DNA of 64,000 nucleotides from Escherichia coli (GTDB taxonomy: Bacteria; Pseudomonadota; Gammaproteobacteria; Enterobacterales; Enterobacteriaceae): assembly GCF_022846255.1 (NCBI RefSeq), contig NZ_AP025682.1; one strand, written 5' to 3'. Positions 32,201 to 35,200 of this stretch are shown here, in pieces; within the stretch, counting starts at the first letter, position 1; each line of letters opens with the position of its first letter. Position numbers: made by a program.

Positions 32201-35200
32201 GTTGTCGAACAGGTAGTTTACACCACCACGCCAGGTGAACTCTTTGTCGTCACGTTCAGATTTATTACCGTAATCACGGTTGAAAGATGACTGATCGGCC
32301 CAGTCATAGCGACCGCCAAGCGTAACCAGCACTTTATCCCACTGCGCCTGATCCTGAACATACAGGCCGGTTTGTTTCTGTTTCAGCAGAACGCGGTATG
32401 GACCAGACGGATTCGGGTGAGCGCCAAAATCAAAGTCACTACGGTCTAAATTATAGATATCAGATGGTGCAACTGAACCGGCATATCCGAACCAGGAGTC
32501 GATGTCATTACGCATACGCATAAAGTCAACGCCAGTCAGCAGAGTGTGATCCACAGAACCGGTTGCGAATTTGCTTTGCAACTGAGTATCAACAGAGAAG
32601 TTTTCTAACTTCTCATTATCGATAACGTACTGACGAGTCAGTGTATGGCCCCATTGAGACTGCGGGATACTTAAACATGGACTCGCCTTGAGTGCCTCCT
32701 GGTCTTTGGTATACAGCGGATCTGAACACATACCGTAGCCATATACGCTCTTTTGCGAAACTTTATTTTGCGCAAAGCGCAGGTTCTGACGCACAGTAAA
32801 GGTGTCGTTAAATTCGTGGTCGAAGCTATAACCAATCATCTTCTCGTTACGAGAATAGGTGTTGTTCTTCGCCCCTTCGTTAAAGTCTGTCGGCAGACGC
32901 TTACCGTTTGGCAGCGGCTCAACGGTCCCCTCTTTCGGCAGCCAGCCGTAATAACCAGTTTCCGGCTCGTTCTGGAAGTAAGAAAGGAAGGTGAAATTGG
33001 TTTTATCGTCCGGACGCCAGGTGAACGCCGGTGCAATAGCATAACGCTGCTCTTCTGACCCTTTCTGCTGGGCATTGGCAGAACGCGCAAGACCGGTCAG
33101 GCGATAAGAATAAACGCCGTCATCATCCAGTGCATCGCTGAAGTCAAAACCGGTCTGGAACAGGCTGTCAGTCCCGGCCTTAAACTGAACTTCTTTCAAC
33201 GGTTCAGTGGTCGGACGCTTGCTGACCATATTCAACAGACCGCCAGGACTGCTTTTACCGTAAAGCACGGAAACCGGGCCACGCATAATTTCAGCACGTT
33301 CCAGCATATACGGGTCGATGACCGCATCGTTATAGAAGTTGCCCTGCAACTTCAGGCCATTCAGATAGTTATTCTGGCTTTGGCCGTCTGCCGCAAATCC
33401 GCGGATGATCAGGTAATCATAAGTATTAGATGCGCCACGGGTTCCCACAGCAACGCCAGGGGTATAGCTAAGCGCTTCTTTCACCGACTTAGGCTGATGC
33501 AGCGCCATCTCTTCAGCGGTGACGACAGAAATAGATTGAGGTACTTTTTGAATCGGCGTATCGGTTTTAGTGCCGGTAGCTGACTGTCGCGCCGCAATAG
33601 TTGCAGCCGGCCCCCATGCGCTTTCTTGCGGCGCAGGTGCAGCGGTAACGGTGATAGTGTCTTCTTTCGGTTCAACCGCTGCCTGTGCATAAACAGACAT
33701 GCCGCTAACCGCTGTGGCTACTACAACTGCGATTTTACGCAGTGAGTGTTTTGGCTGAGCAGTTTTGGAAGGTGCCATTGGTATTTCTCTAGTGTAAAGT
33801 GAATGATAACGTAAACGAGAATGATTATTATAAAGATGAGATAATATTCGAAACGCTGGCGGGTTCGCAAGCGGTACGCAATCTGCGCATTCCTGAAGGG
33901 TCAATAAACAATCAGATGAAAAGAAAGGGTTAATACTTTGGAGGGGATGTTATTTTACCGGATGGCAGCTCGCCATCCGGTATATCACGCTTAGACGTTA
34001 ATTACTCCCAAACATATCTTTAATCCAACCGGCTACACCGTCGCTGTCTTTCTGCTCTTGCTGAGCAGGTTGCTGTTGCGGCTGTTGCTGCGGCTGAGAA
34101 GACTGATCAAACGGATTGCCTGACGGTTGCTGCTGCATCTCACTCTGCTGGCACAGCGATTGCGGATCGCTGGTCCAGACCGGCAAGACACGCATACCAC
34201 CGCTGCAAACAAAGTTGCCGTCGTAGTCCACGCCCATATCTGCAATATCTTCTGGCGGAACAAGATTCAGCGGCGTTGGCGTCTGGTTAGCCAGATAACG
34301 CTGATAAATCGACATTGCCCCGCTGGCACCATACAGTTTGGTCGGCTGGTTGTTATCACGGCCGACCCAGGTGATGGTCACCGTGCTCCCATCAATGCCC
34401 GCAAACCAGGTATCTACGTTATTGTTGGTAGTCCCTGTTTTCCCTGCCAGATGCAGGTTCGGGTATTTCGCCCCAAGCTGACGTCCCGTACCGCGTTGTA
34501 CAACCTGCTGCATGGTCCATAGTGTCAGATACGCCGCCTGCGCCGGAACAGCGCGTTCCGCCTGCGGGAAGCTCTGATACAACACCTTGCCGTCTTCTGC
34601 GATGACTGAACGTAGCGCGGAAAGCGGAGCACGATTACCACCGCTGGCGATAGTCTGGAAGGCCTGCGCCACTTCGATTGGCGTTAAGTTCAACGCCCCC
34701 AACAACATTGCTGGAACTGGATTCAGTTGATCTTTCGGCACACCCAGTTTAATCCAGGTCTCCGTAACCGCAGGCAGCCCCAACGCCATGCCCAGATTCA
34801 CCGTCGGCACGTTCATCGAACGGGTCAACGCATCTACCAGCATCACCCTGCCACTTTCGCTATAACGACGATCATCGTTCTGCGGTGACCAGACCTGGCC
34901 ATTCGGCTGACGCAGCGCGATTGGCGCATCGGCAATCCACGTATTTAAACGATATATTTTCGGCTGGCTTAAGGCCGTTAGATAAGTCGCTGGTTTTGCA
35001 AGGGAACCAATCGAACGACGCGCCTGCATCGCACGATTGTAGCCCGCAAACTGCGGCTCAGAACCACCGACCATCGCACGAACTTCACCGCTAAAGCGGT
35101 CAACAACCACAATCGCGGTTTCAAGATCGCTCAACTTACGCTGTTTCTTCAGTGCCGGAATGCCTTCCACGGCGGCTTTTTCTGCCGCGTCCTGGGCCAC

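What the first reader, a model, noticed from the sequence alone, without database searches (positions are those of the whole stretch)
33795..33850. Fur operator upstream of the variant fhuA
An AT-rich dyad resembling the Fur box lies immediately upstream of fhuA, so the divergent receptor allele is still expected to be iron-regulated as the first gene of fhuACDB.
Basis: partly seen in the sequence, partly recalled or inferred. Interest (0 to 1): 0.2.

Follow-up and report, generated by a model that had tools for sequence, protein, structure and literature searches.

The report
Known Fur operator of fhuA promoter
The AT-rich stretch in front of the ferrichrome-receptor gene fhuA is the well-known binding site of the iron repressor Fur. 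It is unchanged in this strain even though the receptor protein has diverged, so the finding is correct but ordinary.

Summary
fhuA lies on the minus strand (ATG at 33778), so 33795-33850 is its 5' region (-17 to -72).

I built a Fur weight matrix from 16 experimentally supported K-12 sites, leaving fhuA out. Its single best hit in the whole 64-kb window is TATAATAATCATTCTCGTT at 33814-33832 (centre -45). It scores 20.4 bits, with 0.005 such hits expected by chance.

- **K-12:** this is the same 19-mer, at the same -45 position, as the gel-shift-confirmed K-12 fhuA Fur site.
- **Promoter:** it covers a perfect TATAAT -10 hexamer and the literature-derived transcription start.
- **Other E. coli:** the 56-bp stretch is found in 5403 of 5426 complete genomes.
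- **Other genera:** a 16-20 bit site lies at -43 to -51 in all 19 fhuA orthologue loci examined, from 12 genera.
- **CFT073:** the fhuA gene plus intergenic region differs by 1 nt in 2481, and FhuA is identical. Published data for that strain show a Fur ChIP-exo peak here and about 15-fold fhuA derepression in a fur mutant.

The "variant" receptor (89% identical to K-12 FhuA) is a common B2-lineage allele. Downstream genes are fhuC, fhuD and fhuB.

The interval also holds a HypT site known from Salmonella.

Verdict: already known, low interest.

The parts
33814..33832 (-). Primary Fur box, TATAATAATCATTCTCGTT (centre 33823, which is -45 from the fhuA ATG).
   Evidence: Top hit of an independent Fur PWM in the whole window, 20.38 bits. 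Identical to the K-12 site at 167439 that Chen 2007 confirmed by gel shift.
33798..33832 (-). 35-nt block conserved across genera (-54 to -20). It contains the Fur box plus downstream phased ATTATC-like hexamers; I read it as the extended operator.
   Evidence: Mean column identity is 96%, with 27 of 35 columns invariant, in 19 sequences from 12 genera; the linkers on either side are 61-70% identical. Hexamer phasing is shown.
33827..33832 (-). Perfect -10 hexamer TATAAT (-54 to -49), lying inside the Fur box.
   Evidence: Read directly from the sequence. It sits at -12 to -7 relative to the transcription start used by Jo et al. 2019, in which TTACGTTATCATTCA is +7 to +21.
33820..33820 (-). 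Inferred transcription start (-42 from the ATG).
   Evidence: Back-calculated from Jo et al. 2019, who took the E. coli start from Huerta & Collado-Vides 2003. Not measured here.
33800..33814 (-). Proximal HypT (LysR-type, HOCl-responsive) site, TTACGTTATCATTCA.
   Evidence: 15/15 identical to the DNase I footprint in the Salmonella fhuA promoter. 13 of 15 columns are invariant across genera.
33917..33931 (-). Distal HypT-like site, AACCCTTTCTTTTCA.
   Evidence: 14/15 identical to the Salmonella footprint AACCCTTCCTTTTCA. It lies at the same -111 to -97 distance from the inferred start.
33841..33870 (-). Upstream sigma-70-like promoter: TTGCGA (33870-33865), 18-nt spacer, TATTAT (33846-33841).
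   Evidence: Found by the consensus scan, 9 of 12 matches. CTTGC and TATTAT are conserved across genera. Whether it is used is unknown.
33803..33808 (-). Alternative -10-like hexamer TATCAT (-30 to -25).
   Evidence: Shultzaberger et al. 2007 predicted a 7.3-bit sigma-70 promoter with its -10 at -29, overlapped by Fur sites.
33823..33849 (.). AT-rich inverted repeat: arms 33823-33831 and 33841-33849.
   Evidence: 9-nt arms, 89% complementary, 9 nt apart. One arm lies in the Fur box; the other overlaps a perfect ATTATC hexamer.
33793..33805 (.). Window equivalent of the published Fur ChIP-exo peak in CFT073 (177904-177916).
   Evidence: Gao et al. 2023 supplement, mapped onto the window through the collinear alignment.
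31520..33778 (-). fhuA coding sequence (752 aa plus stop), the B2/CFT073-type allele.
   Evidence: NCBIfam FhuA equivalog, 1452 bits against a cut-off of 803. 100% identical to CFT073 FhuA and 89% to K-12.
30672..31469 (-). fhuC.
   Evidence: NCBIfam equivalog, 578 bits against a cut-off of 433. Coordinates mapped from the CFT073 annotation.
29782..30672 (-). fhuD.
   Evidence: NCBIfam equivalog, 549 bits against a cut-off of 252.
27803..29785 (-). fhuB.
   Evidence: NCBIfam equivalog, 1415 bits against a cut-off of 1107.

Best explanation
This is the promoter-operator of the fhuACDB operon, read on the minus strand. When iron is sufficient, Fe2+-Fur dimers bind the 19-bp box TATAATAATCATTCTCGTT (33814-33832). 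They probably also spread over the adjacent phased ATTATC-like hexamers, down to about 33798.

The box contains the perfect -10 hexamer TATAAT (33827-33832) and the inferred transcription start (33820). Bound Fur therefore keeps RNA polymerase off the promoter. When iron is scarce, Fur leaves and fhuA-fhuC-fhuD-fhuB are transcribed.

What is shown here:
- the site, its statistical strength and its position;
- its identity to experimentally bound sites;
- its conservation;
- the operon structure.

What is taken from the literature: Fur binding, Fur-dependent repression and the transcription start. What is inferred: promoter occlusion as the mechanism, and extension of Fur over the downstream hexamers. 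The same block also carries a HypT site, so repression under HOCl stress is probably layered on top.
For: - **PWM scan.** An independent PWM from 16 experimental sites puts the window's top hit at 33823, at 20.38 bits. The expectation is 0.005 per window, and 1 of 200 simulations reaches it. Real sites score 16.6-29.1 bits in leave-one-out.
- **Identity to K-12.** The same 19-mer sits at the same -45 position as the K-12 fhuA site that Chen 2007 gel-shifted (19.5 bits, centre 167439).
- **K-12 expression.** PfhuA-lacZ is Fur-repressed in K-12 (Beauchene 2015).
- **Identity to CFT073.** The window's intergenic region plus fhuA is 2480/2481 identical to CFT073. In that strain Gao 2023 report a Fur ChIP-exo peak at 177904-177916 and fhuA log2FC 3.93 in the fur mutant.
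- **Spread in E. coli.** The 56-bp interval is present in 5403 of 5426 complete genomes; 617 are identical and 4782 are 95-99% identical.
- **Other genera.** All 19 fhuA orthologue loci, from 12 genera, have a 15.7-20.4 bit site at -43 to -51. It is the top PWM hit of the locus in 18 of them. The block -54 to -20 is 96% identical.
- **Overlap with the promoter.** The -10 TATAAT and the start used in Jo 2019 fall inside the box.
- **Operon.** The fhuC, fhuD and fhuB equivalogs follow directly.
- **Related strain.** fhuACDB is induced in serum in an ExPEC strain and attributed to Fur.
Against: - No binding or expression experiment exists for this exact strain.
- The published ChIP-exo peak maps to 33793-33805, about 20 bp downstream of the best 19-mer. 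At the map promoter the peak sits exactly on the PWM site. The in-vivo contact centre at fhuA is therefore not exactly where the PWM puts it.
- My PWM finds only one site above 0 bits here, whereas Chen 2007 report a cluster of three. In this allele a T-to-C change at -60 lowers the weak -51 site from 3.6 to -0.8 bits.
- The transcription start is taken second-hand, and two other sigma-70-like promoters overlap the region.
- Cross-genus conservation alone cannot separate a Fur site from the -10 hexamer or the HypT site that share the same bases.
Confidence: 0.95

Rival explanations
1. The AT-rich dyad is only core promoter DNA: a TATAAT -10 hexamer plus overlapping promoter-like signals. It resembles a Fur box by chance, because Fur boxes and -10 hexamers are both AT-rich, and Fur does not act here.
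For: A perfect TATAAT lies inside the 19-mer. Two further sigma-70-like promoters are predicted in the same 90 bp. Conservation across genera would be expected for a promoter as well.
Against: The PWM score of 20.4 bits is expected 0.005 times per window. The identical K-12 19-mer is gel-shifted by Fur. ChIP-exo shows Fur at this promoter in MG1655, W3110 and CFT073, and fhuA is derepressed in fur mutants of 8 of 9 strains.
Confidence: 0.02
2. The conserved block is a composite operator in which the LysR-type HOCl sensor HypT is a second occupant alongside Fur. HypT would bind TTACGTTATCATTCA (33800-33814) and a distal site (33917-33931), loop the DNA, and repress fhuA under hypochlorite stress.
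For: The proximal site is 15/15 identical and the distal site 14/15 identical to the DNase I footprints in the Salmonella fhuA promoter, with the same spacing. The proximal site has 13 of 15 columns invariant across genera. The Fur PWM gives no positive score there, so Fur alone does not obviously explain its conservation.
Against: HypT binding was shown in Salmonella, not in E. coli. The effect on fhuA was only about two-fold. The hypT gene was not looked for in the window, and its presence in this strain is unchecked. The same bases also fit phased Fur hexamers and a TATCAT -10, and the Fur ChIP-exo peak falls on them. This adds to the Fur explanation and does not replace it.
Confidence: 0.4
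3. Fur control is weakened or altered in this lineage. The B2-type T-to-C change at -60 (33838) removes a secondary Fur site, and the strain-private C-to-T at -13 (33791) alters the 5' UTR. The variant receptor would then be expressed differently from K-12 fhuA.
For: The -51 secondary site drops from 3.6 bits in K-12 to -0.8 bits here. The -13 T is found in none of 5421 complete genomes.
Against: CFT073 carries the same -60 C and shows strong Fur dependence, log2FC 3.93, which is higher than MG1655's 1.09. The primary 19-mer is unchanged. The -13 change lies outside the operator and could be a sequencing error.
Confidence: 0.05

Closest known systems
E. coli K-12 fhuA Fur binding-site cluster (Chen et al. 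2007, NAR; site centre 167439, -45 from the ATG)
   Same: Identical 19-mer at an identical distance from the ATG. The surrounding sequence from -78 to -17 is identical except for one base at -60.
   Different: T-to-C at -60, two changes in the 5' UTR (-15/-13 region) and one at -8. The downstream receptor is only 89% identical.
E. coli CFT073 fhuACDB promoter (Gao et al. 2023 Fur pan-regulon; ChIP-exo peak 177904-177916)
   Same: 2480 of 2481 nt identical over the intergenic region plus fhuA, and FhuA is 100% identical. The flanking genes have the same order over the roughly 39 kb compared, apart from one IS200 in CFT073 and about 840 bp extra in the window, at about 99% identity.
   Different: One base at -13 (T in the window, C in CFT073). 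The window lacks CFT073's IS200C and has about 840 extra bp elsewhere.
Salmonella Typhimurium fhuA promoter with Fur box and two HypT sites (Jo et al. 2019 PNAS)
   Same: Same architecture: distal HypT site, -35/-10, transcription start and Fur box, proximal HypT site. The proximal site is identical and the spacing is the same.
   Different: One mismatch in the distal site. HypT binding has not been shown for E. coli.
Other Fur-repressed siderophore-receptor promoters of E. coli (cirA, fepA-fes, fecA, fhuF)
   Same: [quoted passage not shown]
   Different: Those promoters often have several strong overlapping sites. Here only one site scores above 0 bits with my PWM.

Membership tests
Fur box / Fur-repressed promoter of the E. 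coli Fur regulon | A 19-bp site matching the Fur matrix as well as experimentally proven sites do. | tested here: met
   20.38 bits, against a leave-one-out range of 16.6-29.1 bits for 16 proven sites. It is the top hit of the 64-kb window.
Fur box / Fur-repressed promoter of the E. coli Fur regulon | The site overlaps core promoter elements (-35, -10 or the transcription start) of the regulated gene. | tested here: met
   The box contains TATAAT (33827-33832) and the literature-derived start at 33820. It also overlaps the promoter predicted by Shultzaberger 2007. The start itself was not measured here.
Fur box / Fur-repressed promoter of the E. coli Fur regulon | Fur protein binds the DNA physically. 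| not testable with these tools
   From the literature only: gel shift of the identical K-12 site, and ChIP-exo peaks in MG1655, W3110 and CFT073.
Fur box / Fur-repressed promoter of the E. coli Fur regulon | Iron- and Fur-dependent expression of the downstream gene. | not testable with these tools
   From the literature only: fhuA log2FC 3.93 in the CFT073 fur mutant, which carries the identical allele; PfhuA-lacZ is Fur-repressed in K-12.
Fur box / Fur-repressed promoter of the E. coli Fur regulon | The site is conserved at orthologous promoters. | tested here: met
   5403 of 5426 E. coli genomes carry the 56-bp stretch. All 19 orthologue loci from 12 genera have a 15.7-20.4 bit site at -43 to -51.
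fhuACDB ferric-hydroxamate uptake operon | FhuA, FhuC, FhuD and FhuB are encoded in this order on one strand with short or overlapping junctions. | tested here: met
   All four proteins exceed their NCBIfam equivalog cut-offs. The gaps are 50 nt, a 1-nt overlap and a 4-nt overlap (coordinates).
HypT (LysR-type) operator of the fhuA promoter | Two pseudopalindromic sites about 100 bp apart that match the footprinted Salmonella sequences. | tested here: met
   15/15 and 14/15 identity at the same distances from the inferred transcription start.
HypT (LysR-type) operator of the fhuA promoter | HypT binds, and fhuA is repressed in an HOCl-dependent way, in this organism. | not testable with these tools
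   Shown only for Salmonella. The hypT gene was not looked for in the window.

The most novel reading that the evidence does not exclude
The 35-nt block (-54 to -20) is more strongly conserved across 12 genera than a single 19-bp Fur site needs to be. The in-vivo Fur ChIP-exo peak sits about 20 bp downstream of the best matrix site, on top of the HypT site. The operator may therefore be a shared Fur/HypT element, in which Fur spreads over weak phased hexamers and competes or cooperates with HypT. Separately, the strain-private C-to-T at -13 might change fhuA translation.
Probability: 0.15. Interest if true: 0.25.

Novelty: already known. Interest (0 to 1): 0.06.

Why it matters
It matters little beyond correct annotation. 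It confirms that the surface-loop-divergent, B2/CFT073-type FhuA receptor sits behind the unchanged, species-wide Fur operator. Receptor diversification, presumably under phage, colicin or microcin pressure, has therefore left iron control intact. The fhuA-Fur link has been textbook knowledge since the 1980s. It has also been measured directly in a strain whose fhuA gene and upstream intergenic region differ from the window by one base.

Tried and rejected
- **Classical consensus.** Counting matches to GATAATGATAATCATTATC gives 14/19 at -48, but several overlapping registers score 11-14/19, so it cannot pick out one site. I used the PWM instead.
- **Chen 2007 supplement.** The training sequences are not held. 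I rebuilt the site set from the Table 4 coordinates and checked each centre against gene starts in NC_000913.3.
- **First Python run.** It failed because all loci are stored in one file.
- **Vibrio paper.** The paper on a "fhuA promoter" expression system concerns Vibrio cholerae and is not relevant.
- **Primary transcription-start evidence.** Seo 2014 is not held, and searches for 'fhuAp' and for 'fhuA' with 'transcription start site' and 'Fur box' turned up no primary start-site mapping. The start is known only second-hand through Jo 2019 and Huerta & Collado-Vides 2003.
- **Rfam.** No RNA family matches 33500-34200 at E <= 1, so there is no known RNA element in the leader.
- **Genome-collection scan.** Only 19 of 120 loci were fhuA orthologues.
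- **erpA/yadS ChIP-exo peak.** Mapped to window 24347-24359, it has no strong PWM site nearby. I did not pursue it.

Full report
**Where things are.** The large ORF next to the finding runs on the minus strand. Its ATG is at 33778 and its stop at 31520, and it encodes 752 aa beginning MAPSKTAQPKHSLRKIAVVV. It passes the NCBIfam FhuA equivalog model at 1452 bits against a cut-off of 803. The three following minus-strand ORFs pass the FhuC, FhuD and FhuB equivalogs. Upstream on the same strand lies mrcB, whose stop is at 33998-34000. The interval 33795-33850 is therefore -17 to -72 relative to the fhuA start, inside a 219-bp intergenic region.

**Checking the observation.** The stretch is the AT-richest around, 28.6% GC for 33780-33835. 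It holds an inverted repeat with arms 33823-33831 and 33841-33849, 9 nt each and 89% complementary.

To test Fur-likeness without circularity I took the 16 footprinted or gel-shifted sites other than fhuA from Table 4 of Chen et al. 2007. I fetched each from NC_000913.3 and verified each centre against the tabulated distance to its gene start. From these I built a symmetrised 19-bp matrix with consensus AATGATAATAATTATCATT and 22 bits of information.

- **Top hit.** Across the 63,982 window positions the top score is 20.38 bits. It is centred at 33823, sequence TATAATAATCATTCTCGTT, spanning 33814-33832.
- **Next hits.** The next two scores are 17.5 and 10.4 bits.
- **Chance expectation.** It is 0.005 per window, and 1 of 200 Markov-1 simulated windows reaches 20.38 bits.
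- **Comparison with real sites.** Leave-one-out scores of the real sites are 16.6-29.1 bits, mean 22.2.

**Identity with known sites.** The centre at 33823 is -45 from the ATG. [quoted passage not shown] The K-12 19-mer is identical. In an alignment with K-12 and three other E. coli the whole stretch from about -78 to -17 is invariant, apart from a C/T polymorphism at -60 and a 1-nt gap in one strain. This holds even in two strains that carry a fimbrial operon between mrcB and fhuA.

Over the intergenic region plus fhuA (2481 nt) the window differs from CFT073 by a single base at -13, and the FhuA proteins are identical. For CFT073 the supplement of Gao et al. 2023 lists a Fur ChIP-exo peak at 177904-177916, assigned to fhuACDB, and fhuA log2 fold change 3.93 in the fur mutant. 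fhuA is Fur-regulated in 8 of their 9 strains. Beauchene et al. 2015 show Fur repression of a PfhuA-lacZ fusion in K-12. Huja et al. 2014 find fhuACDB induced in serum in an ExPEC strain and attribute it to Fur.

**Conservation.** The 56-bp interval is found in 5403 of 5426 complete E. coli genomes. Of these, 617 are identical and 4782 are 95-99% identical.

A degenerate DNA pattern for the FhuA TonB box pulled 19 fhuA orthologue loci from the genome collection. They come from 12 genera, including Citrobacter, Enterobacter, Kluyvera, Leclercia, Lelliottia, Shimwellia, Phytobacter and Pluralibacter. In all 19 the matrix finds a 15.7-20.4 bit site at -43 to -51, and in 18 it is the best hit of the whole locus.

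The alignment shows a 35-nt block from -54 to -20 with 96% mean identity and 27 invariant columns. It is flanked by linkers of 61-70% identity. Further conserved elements are CTTGC (a -35-like element), GTTTCG.ATATTAT and the Shine-Dalgarno region.

**Mechanism.** Jo et al. 2019 place TTACGTTATCATTCA at +7 to +21 of the fhuA transcript, taking the E. coli start from Huerta & Collado-Vides 2003. In the window that element is 33800-33814. The start is therefore 33820 (-42), and the -10 is the perfect TATAAT at 33827-33832.

The Fur box then spans -12 to +7 of the promoter, the classic occlusion geometry. Two other promoter-like signals overlap the region. One is TTGCGA-18-TATTAT at 33870-33841. 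The other has a TATCAT -10 at -30 to -25, predicted by Shultzaberger et al. 2007. Whichever is used, the Fur site overlaps it or lies just downstream of it. Downstream of the box, hexamers in 6-nt phase resemble ATTATC: ATTCTC, GTTTAC, GTTATC, ATTCAC. This fits Fur spreading along the block.

**Loose ends.**
- The published ChIP-exo peak maps to 33793-33805, about 20 bp downstream of the best 19-mer. For the map promoter the peak falls exactly on the matrix site, so the offset is not systematic. An extended operator would explain it, but this is inference.
- My matrix gives only one positive site here, where Chen et al. report three walkers. The weak K-12 site at -51 (3.6 bits) drops to -0.8 bits because of the C at -60. 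CFT073 has the same C and strong Fur dependence, so this is unlikely to matter.
- The block also carries the proximal HypT site (15/15 identical to the Salmonella footprint), and a distal one lies at 33917-33931 (14/15) with the same spacing. The interval is probably a composite operator.
- Rfam finds no RNA element in the region.

**The "variant" receptor.** FhuA here is 89% identical to K-12 FhuA (672 of 753 aligned positions) and 5 aa longer. It is almost identical at residues 1-334 and 600-752 and divergent in between. It is the allele of CFT073. About 470 complete genomes are at least 99% identical over the 311-bp stretch spanning the intergenic region and the start of fhuA.

**Verdict.** The element is the long-known Fur operator of fhuACDB, and its regulation has already been measured in a strain with essentially the same sequence. 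Novelty: already known. Interest: low.

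Noticed in passing
window 11806-11824 (centre 11815): The second-best Fur matrix hit of the window, 17.5 bits, ATTCAGAATGATTCTCAAT. 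It lies in the map/rpsB intergenic region, 84 bp upstream of the map ATG (11899). It coincides exactly with the published Fur ChIP-exo peak assigned to map in CFT073 and K-12 (Gao 2023).
   Followed up: partly
window 33791 (-13 from the fhuA ATG): T here, where CFT073 and every other sequence examined has C. No complete E. coli genome (0 of 5421 with a match) matches a 44-nt query across it exactly. It is either a strain-private SNP in the 5' UTR next to the Shine-Dalgarno sequence or a sequencing error.
   Followed up: partly
window 33800-33814 and 33917-33931: Sequences 15/15 and 14/15 identical to the two HypT (HOCl-sensing LysR regulator) footprints of the Salmonella fhuA promoter, with the same spacing.
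   Followed up: partly
window 33793-33805: The published Fur ChIP-exo peak for fhuA maps here in CFT073; the MG1655 and W3110 peaks lie at the same distance from their fhuA start codons. This is about 20 bp downstream of the best Fur 19-mer, although at the map promoter the peak sits on the matrix site. The offset is unexplained. It may reflect Fur spreading over the phased hexamers.
   Followed up: partly
window 33838 (-60 from the fhuA ATG): C, where K-12 has T. 617 of 5403 genomes match the window's 56-bp stretch exactly, so they carry the window's C. It lowers a weak secondary Fur site at -51 from 3.6 to -0.8 bits.
   Followed up: partly
window 31520-33778 (FhuA residues ~335-600): Mosaic divergence from K-12 FhuA. 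The ends are nearly identical; the middle third is divergent and includes a 6-aa insertion. This could fit diversification of the surface-exposed phage, colicin or microcin binding loops, but residues were not mapped to loops here.
   Followed up: no
L003 1-2941 and L004 1-2865 (other E. coli strains): Some E. coli carry a fimbrial usher and fimbrial-protein operon directly upstream of fhuA, where mrcB lies in this window. The fhuA operator is retained unchanged. The insertion is absent from this window.
   Followed up: no
window 33958-33980: Perfect 9-bp stem-loop, CCGGATGGC-GAGCT-GCCATCCGG, 18 nt after the mrcB stop codon and not followed by a T-run. It may be an mrcB transcript end or stabiliser. 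The terminator scan did not call it.
   Followed up: no
window ~19020 and 16318-17159: The window is collinear with CFT073 at about 99% identity. It lacks CFT073's IS200C between degP and cdaR, and it has about 840 bp between yaeH and dapD that CFT073 lacks.
   Followed up: no
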